Shown here one piece after another: positions 10,057 through 38,076 of a stretch of DNA of 64,000 nt. Both the position numbers and the translations under genes were made by a program. The stretch's first letter is position 1. Each line of letters opens with the position of its first letter. The notes beneath the pieces are model-generated. The model was not told the DNA's origin, did not search any database, and worked only from the letters and a program-made list of their open reading frames with translations. Source of the DNA: a virus (Duplodnaviria; Heunggongvirae; Uroviricota; Caudoviricetes); IMG/VR virus record IMGVR_UViG_3300035494_000066; one strand, 5' to 3'.

Positions 10057-10085
10057 ATTGTATTTTCTATGTGCTTTTGTGTCAA
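10057..10085 (-). promoter_or_regulatory. sigma70-like promoter TTGACA-17-TACAAT directed into the tRNA-like element at 10040
   Basis: Minus-strand reading gTTGACAcaaaagcacatagaaaaTACAATaac. Consensus -35 box with 17-bp spacer. Confidence 0.5.
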
Positions 10086-10633: not shown

Positions 10634-11080
10634 TTAATGTGATTTTTTCTCTTCGTCGTAGACACGTTTCCGCAGTGATGACGAACTAAACGAATGTTCG
10701 CGATCATTGAACACACACTTGTCCATGTGACCTGAGATGTCTTTGCCTGTAAAGTGCTTGGTTTTGTATTCATCGCCAAGAATACGAACATCATAGTCTA
10801 AGCACAGCAACAAGTCGTGCAAATCCTTCTCTGTGTGGTACACAATTGTGTGGTCTACATAACGTGAGGATGCTACTTGTATTTGGCGCTCAACGATCGA
10901 CTGTACTGGCTTATTCTTTGACGGACGATCTGCACTCGGGTCAATTTGGATTGCTACAATCAAATAGTCACAATGTTTCTTTGCGTCCCGGAACATCAAG
11001 TGATGCCCTGCATGACACAGGTCAAACGCACCAGCAGTAATGCCTACAGTCAAATTCTGTCTATTAGGAATGTCGATCAT
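10634..11080 (-). CDS. cytidylyltransferase-family nucleotidyltransferase (TagD / RfaE domain II-like, HxGH)
   Basis: GAFDLCHAGHHLMF (HxGH), DYLIVAIQID, ILGDEY and a C-terminal SSSSLR motif resemble glycerol-3-phosphate cytidylyltransferase. 148 aa. Confidence 0.6.
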   Translation of the reverse strand: MIDIPNRQNLTVGITAGAFDLCHAGHHLMFRDAKKHCDYLIVAIQIDPSADRPSKNKPVQSIVERQIQVASSRYVDHTIVYHTEKDLHDLLLCLDYDVRILGDEYKTKHFTGKDISGHMDKCVFNDREHSFSSSSLRKRVYDEEKKSH

Positions 11081-11409
11081 AAGTCTCTCTCATATTTTTC
11101 AAAAATAGCGATGAACACCAAGTCATCAGAGCTGCTATCGTTGTATACACGGTGGAAAGCGCCATCAGGTATCATAAAAAGAGAACCGCTCTCAACTTGG
11201 TAGAAATCGTTGTCGATTTGTATGCGGCCTGTCCCGGAATGAAAGATGTAAACCTCTTCAAGCCCTGGATGAGAGTGGCCGCGTGTCTGCATCTCAGGAT
11301 GCAATGTTGTTTTTGATACTGTTAGATGATTTAGGAACGTGTTATCTTCGAGTAAGTAAGTCTCGTTGTCTTTGATAACGGTTCCGTTTAAGTTTTGGAT
11401 TGATGTCAT
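11077..11409 (-). CDS. cupin-domain protein (110 aa)
   Basis: GHSHPGLEEVYIFHSGTGRI cupin motif. Start overlaps the upstream gene stop by 4 nt (coupled). Confidence 0.55.
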   Translation of the reverse strand: MTSIQNLNGTVIKDNETYLLEDNTFLNHLTVSKTTLHPEMQTRGHSHPGLEEVYIFHSGTGRIQIDNDFYQVESGSLFMIPDGAFHRVYNDSSSDDLVFIAIFEKYERDL

Positions 11410-11439
11410 ATTAATTGTGTATTATCTTTTTACCCGATA

Positions 11440-12075
11440 CTAAAGTATACTGCTTAGGAAAAGCTGGATATCCAGCTTTTCCTTAGAGCTTGCAGCAACT
11501 ATCTCAATAACCCGGGCGCGACCAACTACTCGCCCGCCGATTTTAAAGCATACACCGCGGTCAGTTTTTTCGATTGCAATTGGAGTTTTACGAGGGTTGC
11601 TGCCGCGGCTGTAAATGGTCATAGCAGCCGAACCGCCTTTTTGTACAGCTTCTTTCACAGCATTAACTGCAGCAGCAGCCTGCTTTGCACCAACTTCTAC
11701 ATCTGCATCAATTGCAGCTTGTTCAGCGTCACGCGCTGCAGCGTATTCGGCTTCTTTTTTAGCCCGGAACTCTGCATGCATTTTGCCTAGCTTGTCTAAG
11801 TCAATTGCTGCTGCAACTTCGGTGATTTCTTTAACTGCGTCAGCAAAATAAGAATATGCTTCAACATCGGACTCTACTTCTTTAGTGTCGCGTCCACCGG
11901 AAGAAACTGAAATTTCACAAGACCATTTCTCATCGCCGAACCCTACTGGACGAATATACAACCGGATCACGTCCGACCAAAAGCCTTTTACTTTTACTGA
12001 AACAGTTGGACGGGATTCAACAAGTTCTTCGTAGCTCGGAACAGAGTAAGAGTAGTTGTTGCTCATTTCTATCAC
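11440..12075 (-). CDS. hypothetical protein with Ala/Glu-rich central region (211 aa)
   Basis: Minus-strand ORF preceded by the TATAAT-leader promoter motif at 12083-12105. Confidence 0.5.
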   Translation of the reverse strand: MIEMSNNYSYSVPSYEELVESRPTVSVKVKGFWSDVIRLYIRPVGFGDEKWSCEISVSSGGRDTKEVESDVEAYSYFADAVKEITEVAAAIDLDKLGKMHAEFRAKKEAEYAAARDAEQAAIDADVEVGAKQAAAAVNAVKEAVQKGGSAAMTIYSRGSNPRKTPIAIEKTDRGVCFKIGGRVVGRARVIEIVAASSKEKLDIQLFLSSIL

Positions 12076-12144
12076 CTCAGTCGCTTAACTTATGCTTGTA
12101 TTATAGCACCGAGTGATACGAATGCAAGTGGTTTTTGCAATTAT

Positions 12145-12414
12145 CTAATTCTTTTCAACTAACTCAAGCAGTACGGATAGTCCGTGTGGGTTAGTTCCGT
12201 GCACAGTCCAGCGCTGACTTATGTCGTTAACGTTAATGCGGGCGTCTAACTCGTACGACACACTGTCAGACATTGTTACAACAAGCTTACAATATGCATT
12301 GTCGACTTTTTGAAACCCAGAAACATTAACGCTGTTGATTGTTAGCTCAGGACTGGTTGGCTTTCTTCTTTTGTACCAACTTTGCGGCATTACTTTAAAT
12401 GTGTATTCGGACAT
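12145..12414 (-). CDS. hypothetical protein (89 aa)
   Basis: Minus-strand ORF in the gene array. Confidence 0.4.
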   Translation of the reverse strand: MSEYTFKVMPQSWYKRRKPTSPELTINSVNVSGFQKVDNAYCKLVVTMSDSVSYELDARINVNDISQRWTVHGTNPHGLSVLLELVEKN

Positions 12415-12432
12415 TTAGTACCTTGTACAGCA

Positions 12433-12780
12433 CTACAACACCTTTAGTAATTTGAGTGCGTTTTTAGTTAATTGAACGTATGTGTAGTTTGTCGAGTACG
12501 GCTTGAACCCGTTGTACCGCTTCGTGGGAGAACTGAGTGATTCTCGTATACGGACTAAGTATCCTGTTTTGATTAGTTTTTGGAAATCTGCATCTCGGTT
12601 AATGACAAAGCAGTATCTGCGATTAACGGGTATTCGGAGATCACGACCGTAATCGTTAATGAACTTGAGTATAGCGTAGCGTCGAGGTTGACCCGACGAC
12701 ATTTGGCATATTTTGCGAAACGCTTCTGCTTTTGTTTCAACATGTATCGATTGGTTGAATGTCTTTTGCAAGTGCTTCAT
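12433..12780 (-). CDS. hypothetical basic protein (115 aa)
   Basis: Minus-strand ORF. Lys/Arg-rich. Confidence 0.4.
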   Translation of the reverse strand: MKHLQKTFNQSIHVETKAEAFRKICQMSSGQPRRYAILKFINDYGRDLRIPVNRRYCFVINRDADFQKLIKTGYLVRIRESLSSPTKRYNGFKPYSTNYTYVQLTKNALKLLKVL

Positions 12781-12794
12781 ACTATACTCGAAAT

Positions 12795-12870
12795 TGGCAG
12801 GTCGGGCGAGATTCGAACTCGCAACCTTGGTGTTTGGAGCACCCTGTTCTGCCGTTGGAACTACCGACCT
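12795..12870 (-). tRNA. tRNA-Trp (anticodon CCA)
   Basis: Hand fold. Acceptor aggtcgg/ccgacct, D gttc/gaac, anticodon loop cTCCAaa, T-arm gcgagttcgaatctcgc, CCA. Confidence 0.65.
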
Positions 12871-13057
12871 ATTTTTCTGTTATATCGAACTGACGCGTAG
12901 TATTTACACGTCTTAGCATACGAACTGTCGCTGTGACAGCTGTAATCTGCTTTAATGCACAACCCGTTTCGTGTAGTGCCCCAGTCCTTTATGCGAATAA
13001 AGTTAGTGCAGTTCCCACATGTTCTTCCAGTTGGCATATACATTTACTCTAAAATTG

Positions 13058-13131
13058 GCAGGGGTACCAAGAATTGAACTTGGACCACTGGAGTCAAAGG
13101 CCAGTGCTCTACCATTAAGCTATACCCCTAA
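13058..13131 (-). tRNA. tRNA-Gln (anticodon TTG)
   Basis: Hand fold. Acceptor aggggta/tacccct, D gctt/gagc, anticodon loop cTTTGac, T-arm ccaagttcaattcttgg, CCA. Confidence 0.65.
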
Positions 13132-13136
13132 ATTTG

Positions 13137-13211
13137 GAGGCGTGTGTGGGAATCTAACCCACAAAAACATGATTTGCAGTCATGCCCGTTAACATTCCGG
13201 CAACACGCCAA
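13137..13211 (-). tRNA. tRNA-Cys (anticodon GCA), U73
   Basis: Hand fold. Acceptor ggcgtgt/acacgcc, anticodon arm catga-cTGCAaa-tcatg, T-arm gtgggttagattcccac, discriminator T, CCA. Confidence 0.6.
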
Positions 13212-17966: not shown

Positions 17967-18370
17967 CGATAAAACGGTTTCGGAATATGTAACGTTAGTG
18001 TGCCGTTAAATCCTAAGTATGGCATCGGAGGTAGTTCACCGAATTCAGTATGGTACTTTCCGAATCGAAAAATATTCTCTGCCACATTAACATCGTCTAT
18101 GTATAACTCGTCGATTATAACAGCAGTTTCTTTCTCTACATAGTGCTTATTCTGCATGGATACTGTGATTGTAACGTCGTCTAACAACGGTATAGACGTG
18201 TTAACGTGTACATCATTGTACAAGTCGCAATCTAATAGAGTAATGCCGTTTACTGTCACAGTAACGCCAGGGAAGCCGGCGTCGACTATAGGACGTAACT
18301 TAGCTCTTACTTGAAGACGTAGGTCGCTGGTATCCGTGCCGGATAAAAAGTTCTGTATACACTGGGACAT
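17921..18370 (-). CDS. hypothetical protein (149 aa; true start may be internal)
   Basis: Overlaps the rSAM gene by about 70 nt. Confidence 0.4.
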   Translation of the reverse strand: MSQCIQNFLSGTDTSDLRLQVRAKLRPIVDAGFPGVTVTVNGITLLDCDLYNDVHVNTSIPLLDDVTITVSMQNKHYVEKETAVIIDELYIDDVNVAENIFRFGKYHTEFGELPPMPYLGFNGTLTLHIPKPFYRWRHDIKEYGWYITQ

Positions 18371-19610
18371 AATCTAATATTGAATTTTTCCTTACTGCTT
18401 CTATCTTAGTTATAAACGATATCAAGTCAGCAAACCTATAAGTGTCACTAGGCGCCGAGTTAAGATAGTTGATATAACTTGTCACATCATGATACAAACT
18501 TGATTCTACTACAGACGGCGCTCGGGCATTAGGATTAGAAGCACTCCTTGACACCTGTTCGGAGAATGTAGAGTCTCGCCAATTGGTAAGATCCTCGACA
18601 ATCGTTGCTCGAACACTGTCGGGCAAGACAGTTGGCCGCATGTACTCTGGAAATTCCAAGAAATTACAACTCTCTACGCTCATACTGTTTGCAAGTGCGT
18701 ACTCGTATATAGGGATTAGCTTGTGTACAGTAAAGATGGTAGGTGTTGTTCGGAGTTGGATTAACCATTTAACTCCGTCGTTAAGACTTGCCCAGCGATC
18801 TAGCTCAGCTTTTGCATCAGCAATGTTAGATCCGTATCGCACATAGTCATTGACTTCGTCTAGTGACTCAATACTTAGTCCGACATGCACTTGCCTAAAC
18901 TCGTGTAACAAGTGAACGATACTATCGTCCCAGCTGGATAAGTTTGTAGTAAACCCGATTATAACTTTGTTTGCTACACCAGCTGCTACAATTTCATTAA
19001 TTAAACGCTTAAATGCTGGGATAATTAACGTTTCACCGCCGATGAAATGCAAGTATGCCGGCTGATTCAGCTTAACTAGATCATTAACAAATTTGTCAAC
19101 TAGGTCTGGATCATCAGTCCAGTTTTTGTGAGAGTGCGAATCGATTATTTTTGCTTTTATCAAATCGTGCGCTAGTCGGCTACTCGATTCTGGTTTGCAA
19201 AATATACATGCATTATTGCAGTAATTTCCTAGATCTATTTGCCAGTCGACCGGAAATATCTGAGCAGTAGAATCCGTTAGCCTGTCTTTCCATTCTGAGC
19301 TTAGTAGAGATTTTTCAAACGCAGTTATGTCGATACCGGTCTTAATTAGCTGCTGTGCTCTACCACTGGTTTTTCCATACTTGTCCATGTTGTAACACGG
19401 AGTACAATTATGCACAACTTCGCCGTTGACATGTTGTTGCCTAACAGCTTGCATCACATTATTAAAGTATTCCAAAGGAGACATATCGGATATGTGGGGC
19501 ATTGTAGATGGGCGATACGCCCATCTACAATAGTTGTAGTGCCCCGACGCAGTTATCCGGAAATGAAACCAAGGGCTCGAGCAAAATGTTGTTTTGAGGT
19601 CAGACATCAA
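18300..19610 (-). CDS. radical SAM enzyme, SPASM/twitch-type, with N-terminal Cys-rich domain (436 aa)
   Basis: CNNACIFC (CxxxCxxC), [14 protein letters not shown] and ESLDEV blocks parallel the 4734-6197 protein. N-terminal CTPCY...GRAQQ motif. Confidence 0.75.
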
Positions 19611-26381: not shown

Positions 26382-27497
26382 TTAAACTAGCAGCTGTTCA
26401 AGGTTGATGTTGTTAGACTCGGAGAACATTTCTGCTTTTACTAGCAGGTTTTCATCTTCATCATAGAATACGACAGTGTTGCCTTCTCGTACAACAATGT
26501 CTCCGAGATCAACGACCGCGTAATCAGTGTACGAGTCTGAGGTGCCCGGATTGACAACAAATCGAACTTTAGACGATTTAGTACCGACTGGCATGTCAAT
26601 GACGTCGAACCCTGTACGGACTTCTACCGGTGTGTCGGACCCTTTTTTCAGCAGCTGATTGATGCGCAGTTTGTTAGAAGTGCCGCCTAGCGGATTATAC
26701 GGAGTATCTACGTTTAGATCACTAATCAGCTCAGTCACCGACCCGCCGTATCGCTTGTACTCTTCGATGATAGCTTGCAGCACATCAAACGAGAACTCGA
26801 ACATCCGGAATGCAAGTTCTGCAATTTCTTCTGCAACACTGTCCGGAACGCCTTGGTCTTTGCAATAATCTAGGATTGCAGATTCTTCAAGCTTTCCGTA
26901 ACGGAAGTGATAGTGCACACGCCCCGGGCGGTTACGCATAAACTCGTTAACTTTGAACTCGTTGTTTTCTGTTAGGATAATAAGCCGCTTCTGACTTCCT
27001 GTACCGTCAAACAGCGTTAGCAGATTGTTCTGCGGGTCGTCGTCTTCTGTTGCGTTGAACGTTTTTGCAAACTCGTCGAAAAACATAGCACACTCGCCGA
27101 TGTTATTAACAAATTCGTTAAACCCAGAGCCGCTGAACGGTTCGTTGACAGTAATAACTGGTAGACCTTGGTCGATGACAGTATTGGCGATGATGGAGCT
27201 AGTTAGAGTTTTCCCTGCGCCTTTGTCGCCAGTTAGCATAACACCAGTTGAAGATGTTCTGCTGTTATAAGTAGTAACTACTTTGTTAGCACGGGCCAGA
27301 GCTGAGCCATATACTTTTTCAGGGACAGTAAACCGTTCCTTTTCGTACGTTAGGTAAAAACCGCGGTTCGGGTGAAATCTAGCAGAATACACAGCTGGGC
27401 GAAGTGTATCAGTGAAGTCAGATACTTGCAGACTTAGAACCTGTACAGTGTTACCGTCCTTAAGGAACTTAGTAGTTTTCATTGAATGTTCTCTCAT
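26382..27497 (-). CDS. AAA-family ATPase (371 aa)
   Basis: GDKGAGKT Walker A and DEF Walker B-like motifs. Preceded by a TTGACA-17-TACACT promoter at 27521-27549. Confidence 0.6.
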   Translation of the reverse strand: MREHSMKTTKFLKDGNTVQVLSLQVSDFTDTLRPAVYSARFHPNRGFYLTYEKERFTVPEKVYGSALARANKVVTTYNSRTSSTGVMLTGDKGAGKTLTSSIIANTVIDQGLPVITVNEPFSGSGFNEFVNNIGECAMFFDEFAKTFNATEDDDPQNNLLTLFDGTGSQKRLIILTENNEFKVNEFMRNRPGRVHYHFRYGKLEESAILDYCKDQGVPDSVAEEIAELAFRMFEFSFDVLQAIIEEYKRYGGSVTELISDLNVDTPYNPLGGTSNKLRINQLLKKGSDTPVEVRTGFDVIDMPVGTKSSKVRFVVNPGTSDSYTDYAVVDLGDIVVREGNTVVFYDEDENLLVKAEMFSESNNINLEQLLV

Positions 27498-29423: not shown

Positions 29424-29711
29424 CTACTTCTCTTTGATCCCTCTCCTGATATACACTCGATAAATTGCTAGCAGCAGTCTGTATACTAGGTAGATCACTA
29501 CTAGTGCTATTCCGCTAAACACAACCATAAACAACCACATTACAGTAGAAATAACGTACTCGTTGGTTACGCAGTCCTCTGGACATTCGACTAGAAAATA
29601 ATCCAATAGAATAGGTGGTACAAAAATAAAAGCCAAAAGACTGAAACAGATAACGAACACCTGAATAACGGCCTTGTCAGTGTTTAATGTTTCTTGCTGG
29701 TAATATTTCAT
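29424..29711 (-). CDS. small membrane protein (2 TM helices, 95 aa)
   Basis: Two long hydrophobic stretches. Confidence 0.4.
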   Translation of the reverse strand: MKYYQQETLNTDKAVIQVFVICFSLLAFIFVPPILLDYFLVECPEDCVTNEYVISTVMWLFMVVFSGIALVVIYLVYRLLLAIYRVYIRRGIKEK

Positions 29712-29773
29712 CTTAGTACCTTTATTGTTAGCATGTTTGCAATTTTAACAAAATAAGCTGCTATTGTATTGTG

Positions 29774-30580
29774 TTATCGGGCAGCTAGCTGGTTGAGTTC
29801 TGCTGCAACTTCTTCTTTGTACTCACAAGCCTTAACTTCTTCAACCTTGTTGACTAACTCGTTCCAGAGGTCAACTGCTTTGTCATGCTCAGCATTGTAA
29901 GCCTTGGAATTCTTTCGGGCGTTACTGTAGTGCTTCGAAGCTATTTCGAGGACGATATCAATGCCGCGGCCAGCGGGCAAGTTACCAACTTTCAAGCCTG
30001 CTAGAACGTCCTTAGCAAAGTAGCCCTCGGTAGCAGCCAGCGGCCTGGCAAAATAAGCTACTGCATCCTCTAGATCGCGCTTGCGGAAAGTCTTAATCAG
30101 CTTGCGCTTTGCTTCTTCTAGCTCTGCGTCAGTTAGTCCGCCGTTTGCAGCACGTTCTGCTTCTTCACGGGCATTACGCTCTTCGATAACTTTGAGACGC
30201 TTAGCCTCCCGTTCAGCTTCGCGCTTCTTGCGATTTAACTCGCGCTTGCGCTTCAGCTCAGCAGCCTTTACAGCAGATATTAACGCAGTGTCACCTAGTC
30301 TCTCGACACAGCTAGAACCGATAGCAAAGAACTTGCCTTCTGCGTCTTTGATGATAAAGTGGTGCAGGATAGGAGTGCCGCAATGGGCACATGTGAAGTT
30401 GCAACACGTAGGGCGCAATGCCATTGCGTTGTTGTAGGCATTCGGATTGGCTTCTAGCAGACCTTTGCTCGGAGCTGACCAAACACCGGTTAAGCGGTAA
30501 GGGGCTACGCCCATTTCAAAGACATTGTGGTGGACAACTTTGTTCTCGGGCATTGCAACAAAAGTAGTTTCAACTGTCAT
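29774..30580 (-). CDS. hypothetical protein with N-terminal Cys/His cluster and Lys/Glu-rich coiled coil (268 aa)
   Basis: CCNFTCAHCGTP followed by a KRKRELNRKKREAEREAKRLK-type segment. Confidence 0.45.
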   Translation of the reverse strand: MTVETTFVAMPENKVVHHNVFEMGVAPYRLTGVWSAPSKGLLEANPNAYNNAMALRPTCCNFTCAHCGTPILHHFIIKDAEGKFFAIGSSCVERLGDTALISAVKAAELKRKRELNRKKREAEREAKRLKVIEERNAREEAERAANGGLTDAELEEAKRKLIKTFRKRDLEDAVAYFARPLAATEGYFAKDVLAGLKVGNLPAGRGIDIVLEIASKHYSNARKNSKAYNAEHDKAVDLWNELVNKVEEVKACEYKEEVAAELNQLAAR

Positions 30581-30623
30581 AGCGTAGTCCTCTCTTTAAG
30601 CTATGTATGTATTATAAACAACG

Positions 30624-30660
30624 AAAGGGGCTATGTAAACCCCTTTCTCTCAATTATTTT
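30624..30660 (-). terminator. hairpin terminator AAAGGGG-ctatgtaaa-CCCCTTT fused to a TATAAT promoter (repeat copy 1)
   Basis: Identical 37-nt element at 31097-31133. Followed on the minus strand by gtttataat and a leader. Confidence 0.5.
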
Positions 30661-31072
30661 AATCTATCATCTGACCAGCGCGATAGGCGAATTCTGCAAT
30701 CTCTATGAGATCTTCGAACTTATCTTCAATGTCGTAGTAGCAGGAACTACCAGAAACAAACCCCCAAATTTTACTGTTGATTGTATCAACGCCAAACCCA
30801 TATTCTTCGAACAAAGCTTCCTTGAATTGTTCCTCTATCTCATTCAGCTGCTTATCGTATTCTCGCGCTTTACTTATATATGTTGTAGCAACCAAATCAG
30901 TCAGACGTTTTTCCTCGTCACTGATCTCTTCCTTTGTGCCAACGAATTTATCGAATCCAACAAATACTTCTTTTTCGATTTCTAAACGACTCGGGCATTC
31001 GACGTCATTCTCAAAATCTTCCACCATCTTTTCGTATTTCTCATAGATCATGGCACGTCTCCTTCGTTTCAA
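30659..31072 (-). CDS. hypothetical acidic protein (137 aa)
   Basis: Minus-strand ORF between the two terminator-promoter repeat copies. Confidence 0.45.
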   Translation of the reverse strand: MKRRRRAMIYEKYEKMVEDFENDVECPSRLEIEKEVFVGFDKFVGTKEEISDEEKRLTDLVATTYISKAREYDKQLNEIEEQFKEALFEEYGFGVDTINSKIWGFVSGSSCYYDIEDKFEDLIEIAEFAYRAGQMID

Positions 31073-31096
31073 TTTATGAATCCATTATAAACAAAA

Positions 31097-31133
31097 AGAG
31101 GGGCTATGTAAACCCCTTTCTCTCAATTATTTT
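31097..31133 (-). terminator. hairpin terminator/promoter cassette (repeat copy 2)
   Basis: Exact repeat of 30624-30660. Confidence 0.5.
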
Positions 31134-31483
31134 GAATAATCCACCAACTTCTCAAAATCTTCACGGTTGTTAGCTTCGATCGGTTTAGACATGTCACGAA
31201 TAACAGTAGGACGATCTGCATCTGCTTTGTTATACATTTCAACTTGTTTCTGTTCTTGTAGCTTGTCAAACGGCTCATGTTTATAAGTGATGGATGAATC
31301 AACCATAACCAAAGCGAGGGAGATAAACCAAGCTATCGCCGCGCCTTCAATGAACCAATTGGGCGCTTTCTCGTGTTGTTTCTTTAGGAACTTCCTGAAA
31401 AAGAGACTTGCAATAACAACCGCAAGCACTGCAACAGTAGGAGCTGCCATTCCTAGTGCTACGTTAATCATGTACTCAATCAT
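31127..31483 (-). CDS. small membrane protein (2 TM helices + soluble C-terminus), possible NfeD-like partner of the SPFH protein
   Basis: Hydrophobic segments at the N-terminus and mid-protein. Sits immediately downstream of the SPFH gene. Confidence 0.35.
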   Translation of the reverse strand: MIEYMINVALGMAAPTVAVLAVVIASLFFRKFLKKQHEKAPNWFIEGAAIAWFISLALVMVDSSITYKHEPFDKLQEQKQVEMYNKADADRPTVIRDMSKPIEANNREDFEKLVDYSK

Positions 31484-31535
31484 TTTCTGACCCTCTGTTC
31501 AATAAAAAGATGGGGCCTTTTGACCCCAATTAAAA

Positions 31536-32429
31536 TCACTTACCGAGTTGCATCTGACCAGCTACAGTCTGCATCATATCAACCGGCATGAACACCTTGT
31601 TATCGCTTGCTGCCATCTGTTCCATGATCTGGAAGGAACGATATACTTTGTAATTAGGGGTCATACTATCACCCATGATCTTATTGACTTCAGCTTCAGC
31701 ACGGGCTTTCTCAACTTCAATCTTACGGCGCATTTCCTGTTCTTGTAGCTCACGTTCTAGCTGAACCTTGCTAATTTCCAGTTGAGCATTCTCTTGTTCA
31801 ATCTGCTCACGTCGCTCAGCAGCTTTTTCCTGTGCCTGGGTAATGATCGGAGGATATCCTACATCAGCAAGACCGAGGTAACGAACCTTGAAGGGAGTGC
31901 GTTTCTCGATGCTCTCAGCAAGACGACTTGACAGTTCCTTATTGATTGCGTCACGGCTACTAGCAATCTCTGCAATGGTGAACTGACTCAGATACTCTCG
32001 CGCTTCAGATCGAATAATGTCTTTAGCGTAAGTGTTATAAACAGTAGCTAGCGGAATTTGATAAACACGATCATCATCTGTAGGTCTGGGAGTTACCTTT
32101 GCAAACACCTGTTCATAATCATTAGGATTGACAGACAAGGTTGCGCGTAGATCGAAGGTCATCATCAGCTTATCACGAGGCATGAACAGCTCCATCTTCT
32201 CAGTCACGCTCTGGTCTGCAGCATTCAAAGTGACTAGCTTATCACAATACGCCCAACACCAATCCAGGCGGAACTTGGAGGTTGGAATTACGCCTTCCTT
32301 ATATCCGTTTTTGGTCATGACCTTGCCAACTTCAGCTGGAGCAACTTCTGCGACCTGGCCACAACCCACCATGCCAACAGCAAGGCCTGCGATTGCAGCT
32401 ACTTTAAGAATCTTAGACTTAATAGACAT
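31536..32429 (-). CDS. SPFH/band-7 (stomatin/prohibitin/HflKC-like) lipoprotein
   Basis: Lipobox LAVGMVGCG. SPFH-like core followed by a long EQ/RK-rich coiled coil (REQIEQENAQLEISKVQLERELQEQEMRRKIEVEKARAEAE). Confidence 0.55.
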   Translation of the reverse strand: MSIKSKILKVAAIAGLAVGMVGCGQVAEVAPAEVGKVMTKNGYKEGVIPTSKFRLDWCWAYCDKLVTLNAADQSVTEKMELFMPRDKLMMTFDLRATLSVNPNDYEQVFAKVTPRPTDDDRVYQIPLATVYNTYAKDIIRSEAREYLSQFTIAEIASSRDAINKELSSRLAESIEKRTPFKVRYLGLADVGYPPIITQAQEKAAERREQIEQENAQLEISKVQLERELQEQEMRRKIEVEKARAEAEVNKIMGDSMTPNYKVYRSFQIMEQMAASDNKVFMPVDMMQTVAGQMQLGK

Positions 32430-32771
32430 TTTTATTTCCTTTTTTGAGTTTATATTATTACGTTAATAGTTAAGGCTAGTCGAAGTTAATCGGTTCGGCA
32501 CCGTCGAAGTCTTGCGGGATGCTCGGAAGCTGCTTCCACGGTTTTGTGTTACTTAAGCCATGTTGCACGTCAATGGCCCACACTGTACCATCGTCGCATA
32601 GTGCAACAGCGGTTGCCTGTCCGTTGTTGTACGGCGTAGTTGAGATTGATATCGGTTTACGTCTAGTTGGTTGTTTCATCTGTTCCTTCTGTATTTCTGT
32701 TTGTGTTACTAAGTATAACGCTGGTAGATAGGATTGTACAAGATCTTTTTTTAAATTCTGTACTATCTGTG

Positions 32772-33086
32772 TTAATTTAGATCAAAGCTGTGTATGTCTT
32801 GGTTATCCCGGGGGCGGCTGTTAGAAAATTCAGTGTTAACAGTTTCTGGGCAGCGCACGCCTGTTCCTTCTTCGTTGATCAACTGTACTACATCATTCGG
32901 AGTAGACCCGTACCAGCTTAATACGACAAATTGGTATCCTGCTTTGCATATAGTCTCAGGTTTCGGCGGCTCAGGTCTTGCTTGATGCCCTATTATAGGT
33001 GGCAGTAGAATAGCCGCAGCTAGTCCAAGGATTGCTATTATAAGCATTAGTTCGATTAGTGTGAACCCGCGACTGTTGTGAGTCAT
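32772..33086 (-). CDS. prepilin-type N-terminal cleavage/methylation-domain protein (type IV pilin/pseudopilin-like)
   Basis: N-terminus MTHNSRGFTLIELMLIIAILGLAAAILLPP, a class III signal motif G/FTLIE plus a hydrophobic helix. Confidence 0.55.
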   Translation of the reverse strand: MTHNSRGFTLIELMLIIAILGLAAAILLPPIIGHQARPEPPKPETICKAGYQFVVLSWYGSTPNDVVQLINEEGTGVRCPETVNTEFSNSRPRDNQDIHSFDLN

Positions 33087-33355
33087 TAATCTATCTCTAC
33101 TGGTTTGTCAGTTGTTCGACTGTGTAGCTGTCCGTTTTTAATATAAAACGCTTTGTCTATTTTTCGAATTGTATTTTTTAAGTGTCTGATTGTTTCTGGG
33201 TCATTTAAGTCAACCCGGAAACCGTTGTCAAATACTTCTAGTCGTACCCCCGACTTTGTGCGGACATACGACGATCCAGGCTGAGGGAGCCACGCATTTT
33301 GTAAGGCATTAACGACCTTACAAACAAAGTTTTTACTTGCTTTTAATAAGCGCAA
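33086..33355 (-). CDS. hypothetical protein (89 aa)
   Basis: Minus-strand ORF. Confidence 0.35.
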   Translation of the reverse strand: MRLLKASKNFVCKVVNALQNAWLPQPGSSYVRTKSGVRLEVFDNGFRVDLNDPETIRHLKNTIRKIDKAFYIKNGQLHSRTTDKPVEID

Positions 33356-33707
33356 AATTACGCTCCCGCTGATCTACCTTACGGTTGCTAACTTTAAGGA
33401 AGCTCACCGGAATCCGGTAAACATACGCAACCCAATGACCTGGGCGAACAACTTCAGTTATTACACCGCGTTTTGACTTCCGGCGTGTTGTTTTCCGGCG
33501 AAGTTTTTGTAAGTTGTAAGCAATGATATATTCGCCTTGGCGATCAATCAGTGCGCCCGAAGAAACACTACTAAACGTAGATGTGAGCCCTTTGTAATTG
33601 TTCTTGATTTTGCTAACAATTTCATTTTTCGTCGAAGCAACAACTTTGCTGTTACTGTACGAGGTTATTACGAGTTTAGTTGGCTTGATATCGATCGAAA
33701 GACGCAT
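33333..33707 (-). CDS. hypothetical basic protein (124 aa)
   Basis: Minus-strand ORF. Confidence 0.4.
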   Translation of the reverse strand: MRLSIDIKPTKLVITSYSNSKVVASTKNEIVSKIKNNYKGLTSTFSSVSSGALIDRQGEYIIAYNLQKLRRKTTRRKSKRGVITEVVRPGHWVAYVYRIPVSFLKVSNRKVDQRERNFALIKSK

Positions 33708-33728
33708 CTTAGCTACCTTGTTATCTGG

Positions 33729-34004
33729 TTAATCCAACATGTTACGGTGAGCTGCTACACTAGCACAGTACTCGCTAATGCGCTCTGCAGAACCCCATGC
33801 TCCTCGGGGAACTTGATTGTAGATGAACTTAGCAATCTCTGGGATAGCAACAGCGTTCATAGAGTCTGCCCGGGCAACAGCACCCATTAAGTCATTTGAC
33901 AATACTGCGCACAAAAAGCCGCCCGGTTCAAAACCGTGTTCGATGTAGTTAGAAAGGGCATGTTGAGTGTGTTCCGGGATATTATAACCAGCAAAGTTCA
34001 TCAT
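33729..34004 (-). CDS. hypothetical protein (91 aa)
   Basis: Minus-strand ORF. Confidence 0.35.
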   Translation of the reverse strand: MMNFAGYNIPEHTQHALSNYIEHGFEPGGFLCAVLSNDLMGAVARADSMNAVAIPEIAKFIYNQVPRGAWGSAERISEYCASVAAHRNMLD

Positions 34005-34271
34005 GATGTGATCCTCTATTCCTAACTCTTTATGTGTGTATTATAGTGCCAAATTAGCATTAGTGTCAAGCTTAAATTTTACAAAATTATCAATTATTAG
34101 AAGGATTAACAAGGCACTCGGCTTTAACTTCTTCCTTGATACTATCGACTACCATTGAATGGTACGACAAGTTGTAGTTAATCCAGCGCGATGCTACAAA
34201 CGAAAAATATCCGCCAATGGCTAACACTGCTATTACAACAACACCAATTGCGATCATGATAAAATTATCTT

Positions 34272-34550
34272 TCATTGTGCCTCTTCCTCACGGAATATAA
34301 AATTTGGAGCAGCTGATGCAGTAACAACTAGCTGCCCTTCGTATGCCAACTGGCGAACCTGATGTGCACTAAGCTGTTCGTTAAGTGCGCCGAAAACCGG
34401 ATGATCTACTTTATAACGAAACAACCCATCAGACAACTTAATAACAACAGAGCTAACTCCCCAGTGGTCAACTACACCCATGATTGCAACAGATCTCGAC
34501 TCTGCATAATCAACTGCAATAAGCGTGTTCTTGTATGCATTGTAACTCAT
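34272..34550 (-). CDS. hypothetical protein (92 aa)
   Basis: Minus-strand ORF. Confidence 0.35.
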   Translation of the reverse strand: MSYNAYKNTLIAVDYAESRSVAIMGVVDHWGVSSVVIKLSDGLFRYKVDHPVFGALNEQLSAHQVRQLAYEGQLVVTASAAPNFIFREEEAQ

Positions 34551-34856
34551 GATGCACCTTTAGTTGCTGCTCTTGACACAGTTATTATACTAAAGGCGCA
34601 ACCACAATACAACCTGTTTATCTGTAAATTGTAGTTAATGGTCGGAGTTTTACGTAGTCGGCCCAGATGAGCGCAAGCCACATTGCATTTAGTAAATACC
34701 AAATCGAATCCGGGGCTTCTACAGTGTACCCGGCGCTCGACATAATTCCGTTAACGCACATTTCAGTGGCTATAATTGCTAGCATAATGTGGTTAATGTT
34801 AACAGACAAAGTTCCTAAGATGCTGCCTTTTTTCATTGCGGTAGTCCTGTGTCCTA

Positions 34857-36476
34857 TTACTTGTACGCTGCTAGTCGTTGCCGGATATCACTTAGTGTAC
34901 TAGTGTTGTACATCACACCATTGCAATATCTCAGTTTAAGTTCGCCGGTTGCAGCTTGCTCTTCGGTTTGCTGATCATACAGTACAAAAGAACCGTTTTC
35001 TTTTTCAACTCGCAGCAGACCTTTTGCCGACTTCTTAACGCCAGAGTCTGTAGCAGGGTCTTTAAAGATCTCCCGGCCAACGCCGTCGACCTCGCCGTAT
35101 GTTGCTTTCATTGCGTAGCCCAGGCTATCGCGTGTGTTGTACTGGTATGTATACGACCCGATGCCAAACACAACGTTGGTGCTAGCAAAACCTTTGTCTT
35201 TGAGTCGTTGCATAATTGCATCTGCCCGATCGAGTGTAATCGAATCACCGTAAATCAACCCGATGTGCTCGTCGAGGAGTTTATAACCCATTCCGGTCAC
35301 GGTACCTCCGAACGTGTCCCAAAGACACTCAACTGCTCCCTTAACTTCTGCTTCGCTAAGTTCGACAGAAGAGTTGTAATCATCACTTGGATCAGAGACT
35401 GTTCTAATAACACCGCGATACTTGTACGCTTCGTACTTCTCTTGTACGAGCTCTGGGTAACTTAGCTCATGATTAGCGTCCATGTCGTACATTTTATAGC
35501 CTGTTAGGATTTTAACAGGATCGCCTGAATCAGGGCGCAGTACTACTTTGGACAACCCGATTGCATTCCGGTCCCGTTTCATGATGCCATCTTTCAGTTT
35601 TGGCATGTACTCAGTCACCACTTTCCAGAAATCCCACGTGTCAGACACAACTGACACAACACCAGCTGGGTACAAGTCGAAGATAATACGCCGGAACGTT
35701 TCGATTTCTTCGTCTTTTTGGCCTAGGCACATAACCGAGTGTTCTGTTGCTGGAACACTAATGCCAACAATCTCATTGTCAGAATTAGCACCGTAGTACT
35801 CTTCTAGGTAATCAATTGCAGGAACTGTGTCAGTGCCGATAAACGATAGCAAGTGTCCGGAGCACGAACTTGCAGCATCGTGCAGGCCGCTCATACCGCG
35901 GAAGCTGAAGTCGTGTCCCTGGATTGCACTGAAATCAGTATTGCCTACAGTCTCTAGTGCATAACGATCGATGATACGTCGGTAATCTTTTGCAATAGTA
36001 GCAACAGTCGAAGGCTTCCACAGTTCGGCTGACATTACGCTTTCGATGTAGTTCACTAGCCAGTAAAACTGCGAGTAGCCAGGACTAACATCTACTGTTA
36101 CTGTTGGGATTTTTGCGCCGACCATTTCGCCTTCATCGATGCCTTTGATTGTTAGCGGCAAGAACCCTAGGTCGTGTAGTTCACCGATGTGCTCTACAGG
36201 AACGGCATTCATTCCGAGCGCGTTGTCCAGTCGACGTTTGTATTTTCTTACCACTTTCGCTTTCGGCTTACTAAAAAATGTATCACGCCAGTGATCGATG
36301 AGATACCATTTAATAAAGCCCTGCAGACCGAACACAACAGCAGTGTCACTCGTGCCTTTGTACAGTCGCATAGAACGAGGAGTAAAGTTAGAATACACTC
36401 GGGTAGTACCCGGAGTATATTGCCGGCGATGATCTGCTTTATAAAAATCAATCGCAGTTGGTGCAAATAGGTTCAT
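34857..36476 (-). CDS. nadV: nicotinamide phosphoribosyltransferase (Nampt/NadV)
   Basis: 539 aa. Nampt-like sequence throughout (type II phosphoribosyltransferase). Resembles KVP40-type phage NadV. Confidence 0.75.
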   Translation of the reverse strand: MNLFAPTAIDFYKADHRRQYTPGTTRVYSNFTPRSMRLYKGTSDTAVVFGLQGFIKWYLIDHWRDTFFSKPKAKVVRKYKRRLDNALGMNAVPVEHIGELHDLGFLPLTIKGIDEGEMVGAKIPTVTVDVSPGYSQFYWLVNYIESVMSAELWKPSTVATIAKDYRRIIDRYALETVGNTDFSAIQGHDFSFRGMSGLHDAASSCSGHLLSFIGTDTVPAIDYLEEYYGANSDNEIVGISVPATEHSVMCLGQKDEEIETFRRIIFDLYPAGVVSVVSDTWDFWKVVTEYMPKLKDGIMKRDRNAIGLSKVVLRPDSGDPVKILTGYKMYDMDANHELSYPELVQEKYEAYKYRGVIRTVSDPSDDYNSSVELSEAEVKGAVECLWDTFGGTVTGMGYKLLDEHIGLIYGDSITLDRADAIMQRLKDKGFASTNVVFGIGSYTYQYNTRDSLGYAMKATYGEVDGVGREIFKDPATDSGVKKSAKGLLRVEKENGSFVLYDQQTEEQAATGELKLRYCNGVMYNTSTLSDIRQRLAAYK

Positions 36477-37164: not shown

Positions 37165-38076
37165 TTACACTGACGCAACGATCAACTCGATGTTTGCATC
37201 TGCAGCAGAGTCGAAACTGTCTTGGTTAACAAACGTGTTTGTTGTAATAACAGTATCAATCAGGTTACTAAAAGGTTCGAAGCCTTTTGAAAAAATACCA
37301 TGCGGTGCTGCTAGTGTTACACTAGCCGGATTTAGTTCTTGCAAACGTTCTGCAATTTTAATGAACGTCATCCCACCGTCAACTATGTCGTCGTAAATAA
37401 TCACATGTGCAGACTCGACGTCTTCTCTTGCAGCGCGAACCGTAGTACGTACAATCTGACCGTTAGAAACATTCCTAACTTTGTCTGCACAAACAACACT
37501 AACAGTTGGCGCTTCTGCGTTCGTAGTAGCGTTATACGTGTTCCATTTAGTAACAAAGTCGAGTGTACGCTTAGTTGCACCAGCGTCTGGGCTGAGCACT
37601 ACTACGTTTTTCTTGGTTTCGGAATACAAAGAGTTGCCGTATGCAATCAGTTTATTATTCCACTTGGTTGTCATCGTCTCGGTTTCGACATTGTCGATAA
37701 GAGCACCAGTTACGTCCGAGTGAGGCATTAGTGTATACACAACATCAAATCCTAAGGAATTAATGATATTAGCCATCACCTTGATACCAAACGCCTCGCC
37801 TTCGGTGCACACTCGATCCTGTCGGCCGTACGGTACATAAGGCACTTTTAGGACTAGGTGCTTCGGTTTGTATGTTCGCTTAACAGCATCAGTTAGTAGC
37901 ACTAGCGCAACAATATCGCTGGCAGATTTGAGTTCAGCTGTAATAGTTGTTACGTTACTACGACCTAGTAGATTCGGAGTGCACTTCGGATGTAGTTCGC
38001 CGCCTGCAAACTCAATCCATCTAACATCAGCAATAGACCCGTCATTAGTGACTGTAAAGTTAGTTTTAGTTGTCAT
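37165..38076 (-). CDS. prs: ribose-phosphate pyrophosphokinase (PRPP synthetase)
   Basis: 303 aa. PRPP-binding region IIYDDIVDGGMT and Prs-like N-domain. Confidence 0.7.
   Translation of the reverse strand: MTTKTNFTVTNDGSIADVRWIEFAGGELHPKCTPNLLGRSNVTTITAELKSASDIVALVLLTDAVKRTYKPKHLVLKVPYVPYGRQDRVCTEGEAFGIKVMANIINSLGFDVVYTLMPHSDVTGALIDNVETETMTTKWNNKLIAYGNSLYSETKKNVVVLSPDAGATKRTLDFVTKWNTYNATTNAEAPTVSVVCADKVRNVSNGQIVRTTVRAAREDVESAHVIIYDDIVDGGMTFIKIAERLQELNPASVTLAAPHGIFSKGFEPFSNLIDTVITTNTFVNQDSFDSAADANIELIVASV

What the first reader, a model, noticed from the sequence alone, without database searches (positions are those of the whole stretch)
31127..33086. Membrane module: SPFH/band-7 lipoprotein, small two-helix membrane partner, and a prepilin-like protein
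The SPFH lipoprotein has a lipobox followed by a long EQ/RK coiled coil. It is followed immediately by a small two-TM protein, which mirrors the bacterial SPFH/NfeD operon partnership.

Three genes further on is a protein with a type IV pilin class III signal sequence, GFTLIELM plus a hydrophobic helix. Phage-encoded SPFH and pilin-like proteins are uncommon. Possible roles are membrane microdomain remodelling, superinfection exclusion, or interference with host type IV pili or T2SS, which are frequent phage receptors.
Basis: partly seen in the sequence, partly recalled or inferred. Interest (0 to 1): 0.55.

Follow-up and report, generated by a model that had tools for sequence, protein, structure and literature searches.

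The report
Phage SPFH lipoprotein module plus mini-pilin
A large T4-like marine phage carries a membrane-scaffold (SPFH) lipoprotein with a small two-helix partner, a gene pair that many phages and some bacteria share, and next to it an orphan "headless" pilin-like gene; all three genes are real, but what they do during infection is unknown.

Summary
On the minus strand, in transcription order, lie four genes:
- a 104-aa prepilin-like protein (32772-33086; Pfam N_methyl 8e-8)
- a 67-aa ORF (32476-32679)
- a 297-aa SPFH/Band_7 lipoprotein (31536-32429; 6.9e-16)
- a 118-aa two-TM protein (31127-31483)

The SPFH protein belongs to a widespread, already annotated phage family (phrog_200, 142 phage records) whose function is unknown.

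The two-TM gene is a real conserved partner. A partner-profile hit lies directly downstream of the SPFH gene in 36 of 41 viral loci and within two genes in 4 more. A small two-TM ORF also follows it in 42 of 52 bacterial chromosomal loci (Microbulbifer, Comamonas, Neiella and others). It is not NfeD: no member hits the NfeD profile, and the model shows no OB fold.

The pilin-like protein has a canonical class III signal (G-1, F+1, E+5, G14, P22) but no recognisable pilin head and no homologues. It is not part of the conserved pair. Even so, short pilin-like genes sit next to SPFH genes in at least four other phage lineages.

Best reading: a gene pair shared with bacterial chromosomes that forms a periplasm-facing SPFH scaffold, plus a separate, probably co-transcribed mini-pilin accessory gene. 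Modest interest; new member of a known kind.

The parts
34040..34069 (-). Sigma-70-type promoter-like site (TTGACA, 18 nt, TATAAT; 12 of 12). Likely start of the transcript that runs through the pilin-like and SPFH genes.
   Evidence: No terminator-like site lies on the minus strand between this site and 31528. This is a consensus match only, so it is an inference.
32772..33086 (-). 104-aa prepilin-like 'mini-pilin'. It has a 7-residue leader MTHNSRG, then FTLIELM... with E+5, G14 and P22, then a Pro-rich linker and a roughly 58-residue tail with two Cys (C47, C79).
   Evidence: Pfam N_methyl 8e-8. TIGR02532 is above its cutoff, while the PilA, GspG and GspH equivalog scores are far below theirs. 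It is the only member of its cluster among 5.8 billion protein clusters. The tail has no credible homologue among 1.84 billion representative proteins. In the AF2 model only helix 10-27 is confident. Its start overlaps the stop of the upstream 89-aa ORF (TAATG).
32476..32679 (-). 67-aa soluble ORF of unknown function, between the pilin-like and SPFH genes.
   Evidence: phrog_16915 1.3e-6, no Pfam hit. Absent from the close relative L043.
31536..32429 (-). 297-aa SPFH/Band_7 lipoprotein. Lipobox Cys23, conserved CxxxC (C58, C62), SPFH domain 29-218, EQ/RK coiled coil about 197-256, and a C-terminal NKVFMP segment.
   Evidence: Band_7 6.9e-16. phrog_200 'lipoprotein' 2.3e-47. 142 phage records, the best being Alteromonas phage PT11-V22 at 58.6%. 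Invariant C23, G24, C58 and C62 in alignment A2. The nearest solved relatives are PH stomatin and prohibitin, both weak matches.
31511..31528 (-). GC-rich hairpin followed by a T-run, between the SPFH and partner genes. Possibly a partial terminator.
   Evidence: -13.2 kcal/mol, z -1.7. It is kept, with pair-preserving changes, in relative L043. It is specific to this lineage: in most other loci the two genes abut or overlap.
31127..31483 (-). 118-aa two-TM partner of the SPFH lipoprotein. The inferred topology is N-out/C-out, with a K/R-rich cytoplasmic loop and a 57-residue charged tail in the periplasm.
   Evidence: A partner-profile HMM hit lies directly downstream of the SPFH gene in 36 of 41 viral loci, and within two genes in 4 more. 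The family motif after TM2 is QPSYxPKG...FE...IxDRxxKP. Pairwise match to PT11-V22 ORF41: 26% identity, E 3e-4. AF2 gives helices 2-36, 42-68 and 104-114 with a disordered stretch between. No Pfam family reaches its cutoff.
31084..31117 (-). Terminator hairpin fused to a promoter-like site (TTTACA, 17 nt, TATAAT). It closes the unit after the partner gene.
   Evidence: z -2.65; 0 of 200 shuffles fold as well. A second exact copy of the 17-nt core lies at 30627-30643.

Best explanation
The core of the finding is a conserved two-gene envelope module.

1. The first gene encodes an SPFH/Band_7 protein that is exported and lipid-anchored through Cys23, so its SPFH domain, coiled coil and C-terminal segment lie in the periplasm.
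2. The gene immediately downstream encodes a small inner-membrane hairpin protein whose charged C-terminal tail also faces the periplasm.
3. By analogy with solved SPFH assemblies (HflK/C, prohibitin, stomatin, flotillin), the lipoprotein most likely oligomerises through its coiled coil into a ring or dome on a membrane surface. The hairpin protein would then be its membrane adaptor or client, probably docking through the conserved motif just after TM2.
4. The same pair sits in ordinary chromosomal contexts in several bacterial genera. Phages therefore probably share it with their hosts by gene transfer (direction not determined), and it probably acts like an auxiliary host function: organising or stabilising the inner membrane, or controlling membrane-protein turnover, so that the infected cell keeps working until lysis.
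5. The pilin-like gene is a separate accessory gene. It is probably transcribed from the same early promoter. Its product has everything needed for recognition by the host prepilin peptidase and for entering a type IV filament core, but it has no normal pilin head. Its most likely action is therefore on the host's type IV pilus, T2SS or prepilin-peptidase machinery.

Shown: the domain identities, the lipobox, the class III signal, conservation of the partner, the bacterial counterparts, and recurrence of pilin-like neighbours.

Inferred: topology, oligomerisation, physical interaction, co-transcription, and every physiological role.
For: Identity of the proteins:
- Band_7 and N_methyl hits above cutoff.
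- phrog_200, and 142 phage records including KVP40, XacN1, PT11-V22 and PAK_P3.
- Invariant lipobox Cys, and a conserved CxxxC pair that fits an oxidising compartment.

Partner gene:
- A partner-profile HMM hit directly downstream in 36 of 41 viral loci, plus 4 within two genes.
- A small two-TM ORF directly downstream in 37 of 41 viral and 42 of 52 bacterial loci.
- In most loci the stop and start abut or overlap.
- Shared family motifs.
- In the close relative L043 only these two genes are shared with the window (82% nucleotide identity over 1396 bp) and the flanks differ. In KVP40 the pair lies on the opposite strand inside the baseplate gene cluster. Both observations point to a two-gene cassette.

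Bacterial copies: found in Microbulbifer, Comamonas, Neiella and others. The Neiella copy lies beside ATP synthase genes.

Topology: 5 K/R in the 16-residue loop between the TM helices and none at the N-terminus.

Pilin-like gene:
- G-1, F+1, E+5, G14 and P22 can be read directly from the sequence.
- No polytopic peptidase-like ORF in the window.
- Pilin-like genes adjoin SPFH genes in Aeromonas T4-like phages of two genera, and in L034, L140 and L129.

Transcription: a promoter-like site at 34069, with the first terminator-like site on that strand at 31528.
Against: - No experiment or structure exists for any member. Recent papers state that the role of phage SPFH lipoproteins is unclear (PMC13239085; PMC8540360).
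- No model of the SPFH protein or of the complex was made here, so oligomerisation and partner binding are analogy only.
- The residue after the lipidated Cys is Gly. Sorting to the inner or the outer membrane therefore cannot be decided from sequence.
- The partner model has low confidence (pLDDT 62).
- PAK_P3-type phages have the SPFH gene but no detectable partner.
- The partner profile detects only 22 of 52 bacterial neighbours. The remaining bacterial cases rest on architecture alone.
- Promoter and terminator calls are consensus matches. The number of promoter-like sites in the region does not exceed shuffled expectation (12 found against a mean of 13.8).
- The pilin-like protein has no homologues, so nothing constrains its function.
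Confidence: 0.5

Rival explanations
1. The three proteins form one superinfection-exclusion or receptor-masking system. The mini-pilin poisons or caps host type IV pili or the T2SS pseudopilus. The SPFH cage and its hairpin partner trap the pilus platform or block DNA entry at the inner membrane.
For: Pilin-like and SPFH genes recur as neighbours in at least five phage lineages. Three of the 120 sampled pilin-motif viral loci have a Pfam-verified Band_7 gene immediately adjacent, which I roughly estimate at tens of times more than expected. The two genes are probably co-transcribed from an early promoter. In L140 the SPFH stop overlaps the pilin-like start.
Against: Most SPFH modules have no pilin-like neighbour: only 1 of the 35 loci returned by the viral-contig scan has one. 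The closest relative keeps the pair without the pilin-like gene. Bacteria carry the pair chromosomally with no pilin gene recognised among the neighbours inspected. The head domains of the neighbouring mini-pilins are unrelated to one another. There are no PADLOC hits.
Confidence: 0.15
2. The SPFH lipoprotein mimics HflK/C. It forms a periplasmic cage that captures or shields the host FtsH protease, or another inner-membrane protease, and so changes the turnover of phage or host membrane proteins.
For: HflK/C is the known periplasm-facing SPFH cage and it controls FtsH (PMC12048511, listed). The old KVP40 annotation matched the hflK model TIGR01933. The domain order (SPFH, coiled coil, C-terminal segment) aligns with prohibitin. 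The PT11-V22 authors classed their copy under 'quality control of membrane proteins'.
Against: No current NCBIfam model, including HflK and HflC, matches at E<=0.01. The anchor is a lipid rather than an N-terminal TM helix. The family has its own dedicated partner, which differs from anything in the HflK/C system. No interaction data exist.
Confidence: 0.15
3. This is a classical SPFH/NfeD operon. The small membrane protein would be a short NfeD whose C-terminal OB-fold domain binds the SPFH C-terminus.
For: A small membrane protein is conserved next to an SPFH gene.
Against: None of 28 family members hits Pfam NfeD, even at E 0.05. AF2 predicts no beta strands, and the tail is charged and disordered. 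The gene lies downstream rather than upstream. The SPFH domain here is periplasmic, whereas from general knowledge the NfeD-partnered stomatin-like proteins such as QmcA and YqiK face the cytoplasm.
Confidence: 0.04
4. The pair is an envelope-spanning, spanin-like or lysis-timing device: an outer-membrane lipoprotein bound to an inner-membrane protein through the periplasm.
For: The layout, a lipoprotein plus an inner-membrane protein with a periplasmic tail, resembles two-component spanins. The residue after the lipidated Cys is not Asp, which by the E. coli rule (general knowledge) would allow outer-membrane sorting. In Aeromonas T4-like phages the SPFH gene lies a few kb from rI.
Against: The lipoprotein is a 297-aa Band_7 protein, not a short proline-rich o-spanin. 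The partner has two TM helices and no long periplasmic coiled coil. The pair is chromosomal in non-phage contexts in bacteria. It sits among early-type promoters rather than in a lysis cassette.
Confidence: 0.05

Closest known systems
Phage SPFH/Band_7 lipoproteins (phrog_200; e.g. KVP40.0339, PAK_P3 gp041, XacN1 ORF080, Alteromonas phage PT11-V22 ORF42 'stomatin-like protein')
   Same: Full-length homology: 58.6% to PT11-V22 and 28-52% to the others. Same lipobox, CxxxC pair, SPFH domain, coiled coil and C-terminal segment. Except in PAK_P3, the same two-TM gene follows directly downstream.
   Different: Nothing essential. The window copy has a hairpin and T-run between the two genes and a pilin-like gene two genes upstream. 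None of these proteins has a tested function.
HflK/HflC, prohibitin and stomatin cage-forming SPFH proteins
   Same: Band_7 domain followed by a long coiled coil and a short C-terminal segment. Profile matches to PH stomatin (E 0.002) and prohibitin (E 0.0055). Like HflK/C, the SPFH domain is predicted to face the periplasm.
   Different: The anchor is a lipid on Cys23 rather than a TM helix or hairpin. There is no hit to the HflK or HflC models. It has a dedicated small two-TM partner. Cage formation was not tested.
SPFH/NfeD operons (e.g. ybbJ-qmcA, yqiJ-yqiK, yuaF-floT)
   Same: An SPFH gene is paired with a small membrane-protein gene.
   Different: The partner has no NfeD domain and no OB fold. 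The gene order is reversed. The predicted compartment is the periplasm.
Type IV pilins and T2SS pseudopilins (class III signal proteins)
   Same: Short basic leader ending in Gly, then F+1, E+5, G14 and P22. N_methyl and TIGR02532 are above their cutoffs.
   Different: The mature protein is only 97 residues. The helix ends at P22-P23 and is followed by a Pro-rich linker. There is no detectable alpha1-C or alpha-beta head (low confidence). Equivalog scores are far below cutoff. There are no homologues.
Short pilin-like ORFs of T4-like Aeromonas phages (44RR2.8t ORF097c, phage 25 ORF086c)
   Same: They have a class III signal, are much shorter than real pilins, carry a single Cys pair, and lie beside an SPFH gene in the early region of a T4-like phage.
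   Different: There is no sequence similarity beyond the N-terminal helix. In those phages the pilin-like gene lies immediately downstream of a TM-anchored, 20%-identical SPFH protein and no two-TM partner is present.

Membership tests
SPFH / Band_7 (PF01145) | Profile match above the curated gathering score | tested here: met
   59.2 bits against a cutoff of 23.6, E 6.9e-16, residues 29-218.
SPFH / Band_7 (PF01145) | Coiled-coil region after the SPFH domain, with a C-terminal segment, as in cage-forming members | tested here: met
   Residues 197-256 are 55% E/Q/R/K with no Pro. The region aligns with the prohibitin coiled coil.
SPFH / Band_7 (PF01145) | Assembly into a ring or cage oligomer on a membrane | not testable with these tools
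   No multimer prediction was available.
Bacterial lipoprotein (signal peptidase II substrate) | Lipobox with an invariant Cys at the end of an N-terminal hydrophobic signal | tested here: met
   MSIKSKILKVAAIAGLAVGMVG-C23 fits the PROSITE-type pattern. C23 is invariant in alignment A2. Lipidation itself was not tested.
NfeD (PF01957), partner of SPFH | NfeD profile match | tested here: not met
   None of 28 family members matches at E<=0.05. The window protein has only sub-threshold hits to unrelated membrane families.
NfeD (PF01957), partner of SPFH | C-terminal OB-fold beta-barrel domain | tested here: not met
   The AF2 model built with a 36-sequence alignment has three helices and no strands, and residues 69-103 are disordered. 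Mean pLDDT is 62, so confidence is moderate.
Phage/bacterial 'SPFH-lipoprotein partner' family (unnamed; phrog_36640 and phrog_15523 cover a few members) | Position directly downstream of the SPFH lipoprotein gene; two N-terminal TM helices; a conserved motif after TM2 and an IxDxxxKP motif in the tail | tested here: met
   Position and TM helices. The window protein scores E 3.3e-9 against the family profile (P0041). The divergent motif versions ITYKHEP and VIRDMSKP align with the family motifs.
Type IV pilin-like proteins (class III signal; PF07963 / TIGR02532) | Prepilin cleavage/methylation motif: short basic leader, Gly-1, hydrophobic +1, Glu+5 | tested here: met
   N_methyl 32 bits (cutoff 21.2) and TIGR02532 21 bits (cutoff 16.3). 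MTHNSRG|FTLIE is read directly from the sequence.
Type IV pilin-like proteins (class III signal; PF07963 / TIGR02532) | Long alpha1 helix (about 50 residues) packed on a beta-sheet head domain | tested here: inconclusive
   The single-sequence AF2 model shows a helix only to residue 27, and the rest has pLDDT below 50. P22-P23 and the PEPPKPE linker argue against an alpha1-C helix.
Type IV pilin-like proteins (class III signal; PF07963 / TIGR02532) | Cleavage and N-methylation by a prepilin peptidase | not testable with these tools
   No polytopic peptidase-like ORF lies in the window, so a host enzyme would be needed.
Specific pilin or pseudopilin families (PilA, GspG, GspH, PpdD, ComGE) | Equivalog model score above the curated cutoff | tested here: not met
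   Scores of 17-37 bits against cutoffs of 49-400. The matches cover only the N-terminal helix.
Two-component spanin | A short outer-membrane lipoprotein plus a type II inner-membrane protein with a periplasmic coiled coil, in a lysis cassette | tested here: not met
   The lipoprotein is a 297-aa Band_7 protein. The partner has two TM helices and a disordered tail. The pair also occurs in bacterial chromosomes.

The most novel reading that the evidence does not exclude
Headless pilin-like proteins and SPFH scaffolds could form a recurrent phage system aimed at the host's type IV filament machinery. In this reading the mini-pilin is processed by host PilD and enters or jams the pilus or T2SS assembly platform, and the periplasm-facing SPFH cage, with its hairpin adaptor, corrals that platform or the pool of membrane-embedded pilins. 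The infected cell would thereby shut down pili and secretion, which would exclude pilus-dependent competitors or stop progeny adsorbing to infected cells.
Probability: 0.1. Interest if true: 0.7.

Novelty: new member of a known kind. Interest (0 to 1): 0.4.

Why it matters
SPFH lipoproteins are annotated in well over a hundred large virulent phages, including KVP40, the PAK_P3 group used in therapy models, and several jumbo phages, yet nobody knows what they do.

Three results here make the question easier to approach experimentally:
- The SPFH gene nearly always comes with one specific small two-TM partner, so the two should be studied together.
- The same pair exists in bacterial chromosomes. 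That offers culturable bacterial hosts of the pair (for example Comamonas and Microbulbifer) in which to study it, and it suggests a cellular envelope function rather than a phage-specific one.
- It would be a second kind of periplasm-facing bacterial SPFH system besides HflK/C.

The recurrent 'headless pilin' neighbours are a cheap lead to a possible new way for phages to interfere with type IV pili or type II secretion. None of this changes current understanding unless the experiments are done.

Tried and rejected
- Megablast of 7.5 kb around the locus against the phage collection found nothing, so there is no close sequenced relative there.
- tblastn of the two-TM protein and of the pilin-like protein against phages found nothing. 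The partner relationship only appeared through synteny and a family profile.
- The first eight-sequence SPFH alignment (A1) was too diverse for the locus scan. A five-sequence alignment (A2) worked.
- PADLOC gave no hit for any of the four proteins. NCBIfam gave none for the SPFH protein, the partner or the 67-aa ORF.
- A full HMMER search with the pilin-like tail (residues 35-104) returned only itself plus summed short matches to repeats in giant HYR_4C/REJ-repeat proteins and one unannotated 336-aa repeat protein. I judged those spurious.
- The single-sequence AF2 model of the pilin-like protein (pLDDT 56) and the partner model (pLDDT 62) were too weak for a fold search, so none was run.
- The structure tool does not accept locus-derived sequences. 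The partner alignment therefore had to be rebuilt from database hits.
- I looked for a phage prepilin peptidase by searching the window for polytopic ORFs and found none. The rest of the roughly 300-kb genome was not available.
- I considered that the hairpin between the SPFH and partner genes sets their stoichiometry. It is conserved only in the nearest relative, and in most loci the genes abut or overlap. It is kept as a minor, lineage-specific feature.
- Literature searches found no functional study of phage SPFH lipoproteins or of phage pilin-like proteins.
Full report
**What is there**

All genes in this part of the window are on the minus strand. In transcription order the finding covers four ORFs:
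- a 104-aa ORF at 32772-33086
- a 67-aa ORF at 32476-32679
- a 297-aa ORF at 31536-32429
- a 118-aa ORF at 31127-31483

The 297-aa protein hits Pfam Band_7 at 6.9e-16, well above the gathering score, and PHROG 200 'lipoprotein' at 2.3e-47. Its N-terminus, MSIKSKILKVAAIAGLAVGMVG-C, fits a lipobox pattern. Residues 197-256 are 55% E/Q/R/K with no proline, against 23% in the SPFH domain.

The 104-aa protein hits Pfam N_methyl (8e-8) and TIGR02532, both above cutoff. It reads MTHNSRG|FTLIELMLIIAILGLAAAILLPP..., which gives Gly-1, Phe+1, Glu+5, Gly14 and Pro22.

The 118-aa protein has two hydrophobic helices separated by a K/R-rich loop.

The one slip is direction: the pilin-like gene lies upstream of the SPFH gene, with one gene between them.

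**Genomic setting**

The window comes from a distant T4-like phage.
- The topoisomerase II large subunit is 36% identical to those of Aeromonas T4-like phages.
- The window holds 29 tRNA genes.
- The same proteins occur on a metagenomic contig of 302,565 bp.
- There is no close nucleotide relative in the phage collection.

Transcription signals come from consensus scans only.
- A perfect sigma-70-type promoter-like site lies at 34069-34040.
- The next terminator-like site on that strand is the hairpin at 31528-31511, just after the SPFH gene.
- A stronger terminator fused to a promoter-like site follows the 118-aa gene at 31117-31084.
- The pilin-like start codon overlaps the stop codon of the upstream 89-aa ORF.

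On these predictions the pilin-like, 67-aa, SPFH and partner genes would be expressed together as early genes. The number of promoter-like sites in the region is no higher than in shuffled sequence, so this remains an inference.

**The SPFH lipoprotein is a known, widespread phage family**

tblastn finds full-length relatives in 142 phage records. They include Vibrio KVP40-like phages, the Pseudomonas PAK_P3 group and jumbo phages, Aeromonas T5-like phages, Xanthomonas XacN1 and, closest at 58.6%, Alteromonas phage PT11-V22.

The family alignment keeps the lipobox Cys, the following Gly and a CxxxC pair (C58, C62) invariant among the closer members. That pattern fits a periplasmic protein.

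The nearest solved relatives by sequence are archaeal stomatin and prohibitin, both weak matches, with the prohibitin match extending through the coiled coil.

Pfam hits to Band_7 and N_methyl in T4-like phages were tabulated in 2006 (PMC1524935). Recent papers still say the role of the phage SPFH protein is unclear (PMC13239085, PMC8540360, PMC7289586).

**The two-TM protein is a real partner, but it is not NfeD**

In PT11-V22, KVP40, XacN1 and Aeromonas phage Akh-2, a protein of 116-139 residues with the same two-TM-plus-charged-tail design follows the SPFH gene directly. The window protein matches the PT11-V22 one at 26% identity, E 3e-4.

Thirty-five further viral loci were retrieved with the SPFH alignment. 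Most show the same neighbour, often with overlapping or abutting stop and start codons. The counts are:

| Test | Viral loci | Bacterial loci |
|---|---|---|
| Partner-profile hit directly downstream of SPFH | 36 of 41 | 14 of 52 |
| Partner-profile hit elsewhere nearby (viral: within two genes; bacterial: start overlapping the called SPFH ORF) | 4 more | 8 more |
| Small two-TM ORF directly downstream, by architecture | 37 of 41 | 42 of 52 |

Only PAK_P3 lacks a detectable partner. The family shares motifs: QPSYxPKG right after TM2, then FE, then IxDRxxKP. The window protein carries divergent versions of them and scores E 3.3e-9 against the family profile.

Evidence against NfeD:
- None of 28 members hits Pfam NfeD.
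- The AF2 model, built on 36 sequences, shows helices 2-36, 42-68 and 104-114, a disordered stretch between them and no strands (pLDDT 62).

With 5 K/R in the inter-helix loop and none at the N-terminus, the favoured topology puts both ends, including the 57-residue tail, in the periplasm. That is the same compartment as the SPFH domain.

**The pair behaves as a cassette and has cellular counterparts**

A metagenomic relative (L043) shares only these two genes with the window, at 82% nucleotide identity over 1396 bp and including the intergenic hairpin. Its flanks are different and it has no pilin-like gene. In KVP40 the pair sits on the opposite strand inside the baseplate gene cluster.

A scan of one genome per bacterial species found the SPFH lipoprotein in many Microbulbifer and Comamonas species, and in Neiella, Endozoicomonas, Bdellovibrionota and candidate-phyla-radiation (CPR) bacteria. 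The neighbouring genes differ between genera. In Neiella the pair lies beside ATP synthase genes. This points to a cellular two-gene system that phages and bacteria share, rather than a phage invention. The direction of transfer was not determined.

**The pilin-like protein**

It has a complete class III signal and the G14 and P22 hallmarks. After P22-P23 comes a proline-rich linker and a tail of about 58 residues with two cysteines.

Evidence that it is not a standard pilin:
- Equivalog models for PilA, GspG, GspH and others match only the N-terminal helix and fall far below their cutoffs.
- It is the only member of its cluster in the 5.8-billion-cluster protein collection.
- Its tail has no credible relative among 1.84 billion representative proteins. 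The only other hits are summed short matches to repeats in giant proteins.
- The single-sequence model is confident only for helix 10-27.

It is best described as a short, 'headless' pilin-like protein. No peptidase-like polytopic ORF lies in the window, so it would depend on a host prepilin peptidase or on a gene elsewhere in the genome.

**Is the pilin-like gene linked to the SPFH gene?**

It is not obligately linked, but the neighbourhood recurs.

| Phage or locus | Arrangement |
|---|---|
| Aeromonas T4-like phages of two genera (44RR2.8t, 31, 25, UP87) | TM-anchored SPFH gene, then directly a 72-75-aa pilin-like ORF, then a second membrane or lipoprotein gene |
| L034 (Aeromonas T5-like contig) | SPFH lipoprotein, two-TM partner, then a 38-residue pilin-like ORF |
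| L140 | Band_7 gene (5.4e-32) overlapping the start of a 122-aa N_methyl protein |
| L129 | 55-aa N_methyl protein, then a Band_7 gene 55 nt downstream |
| L185 (Aeromonas phage 25, same phage as row 1) | Adjacent pair |

The last three came from an independent scan of viral contigs for DNA encoding GFTLIELM. That scan gave 120 loci totalling 1.08 Mb.

Homologues of this SPFH occur in about 0.3% of phage records. Three immediate adjacencies in 120 loci is therefore, by my rough estimate, tens of times more than chance.

The head regions of these neighbours are unrelated to one another. About 40 of the 107 phage pilin-like ORFs sampled are under 100 residues. The shared element is therefore only the signal and the alpha1-N helix.

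**Most likely mechanism**

Shown: the domain identities, the lipobox, the conserved partner, the bacterial counterparts and the recurrent pilin-like neighbours.

Inferred:
- The lipoprotein oligomerises through its coiled coil into a periplasm-facing ring or dome, as solved SPFH proteins do.
- The hairpin protein is its inner-membrane adaptor or client.
- Phages use the pair as an auxiliary host-type function that keeps the inner membrane organised or controls membrane-protein turnover during infection.
- The mini-pilin acts separately on the host's prepilin peptidase or type IV filament machinery.

I put about 0.5 on the structural core of this account and less on any specific physiological role.

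The rivals are:
- a single three-part exclusion system (0.15)
- an HflK/C mimic acting on FtsH (0.15)
- a spanin-like or lysis device (0.05)
- a true NfeD operon (0.04)

**Verdict**

The SPFH lipoprotein and the pilin-like ORF are new members of kinds already seen and annotated in phages.

Two points appear to be undescribed: the dedicated two-TM partner family, with its bacterial counterparts, and the repeated pairing of headless pilins with SPFH genes. They give the finding modest interest (0.4).

Noticed in passing
window 30611-30647 and 31084-31117 (minus strand): Two copies of a roughly 55-nt element, AAAATAATTGAGAGAAAGGGGTTTACATAGCCCCT..GTTTATAAT, bracket the 137-aa ORF at 30659-31072. 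Each is a terminator hairpin whose loop and 3' arm carry a TTTACA -35 box, followed 17 nt later by TATAAT. The 17-nt core is identical in both copies (expected 0.06 by chance). The design recalls the promoter-stem-loop cassettes proposed to shuffle genes in T4-type phages; that comparison is from memory and was not tested.
   Followed up: partly
window 29424-34836: Six of the 13 minus-strand ORFs in the window that have a hydrophobic segment lie within this 5.4-kb stretch: 29424-29711 (95 aa, two TM), 31127-31483, 31536-32429, 32772-33086, 34090-34275 (61 aa) and 34618-34836 (72 aa). This is a local cluster of small envelope-targeted proteins.
   Followed up: partly
window 34857-36476 and 37165-38076: A nicotinamide/nicotinate phosphoribosyltransferase (NAPRTase 1.2e-37) and a ribose-phosphate pyrophosphokinase-like protein lie just upstream of the locus. 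The same two enzymes lie a few kb from the SPFH pair in Alteromonas phage PT11-V22 (L001).
   Followed up: no
window 18-13209: 29 tRNA genes, mostly in a dense array at 2120-4200, including duplicates (Pro, Ile, Asp, Phe, Glu, Tyr, Ala, Met) and one with an aberrant anticodon loop at 3968-4043.
   Followed up: no
L006 3455-3694; L019 6953-7156; L030 2997-3185; L031 6901-7089; L032 6884-7159: In Pseudomonas phage Boevelstad and similar viral contigs, a 62-91-aa soluble protein ending ...LEPDxxGLSWxTFF is inserted directly downstream of the SPFH lipoprotein gene. In L006, L019 and L032 the two-TM partner then follows it one gene further on.
   Followed up: partly
L007 9385-9993 (44RR2.8t ORF096c); L048 2646-3254 (phage 25 ORF085c): In Aeromonas T4-like phages the SPFH gene and mini-pilin gene are followed by a conserved 202-aa protein with a lipobox-like N-terminus (AALSGC) and a Gly/Ser-rich tail. 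Together they form a conserved three-gene envelope set across two genera.
   Followed up: no
window 26382-27497; L043 3210-4292: A 371-aa AAA/nSTAND3-like ATPase in the window has a counterpart (360 aa, the same weak Pfam hits) a few kb upstream of the SPFH pair in the related contig L043. However, nucleotide similarity between the two contigs is essentially confined to the SPFH pair.
   Followed up: no
window 4734-6197 and 18300-19610: Two radical-SAM proteins (487 and 436 aa) are encoded among the tRNA and nucleotide-metabolism genes. Their function was not examined.
   Followed up: no
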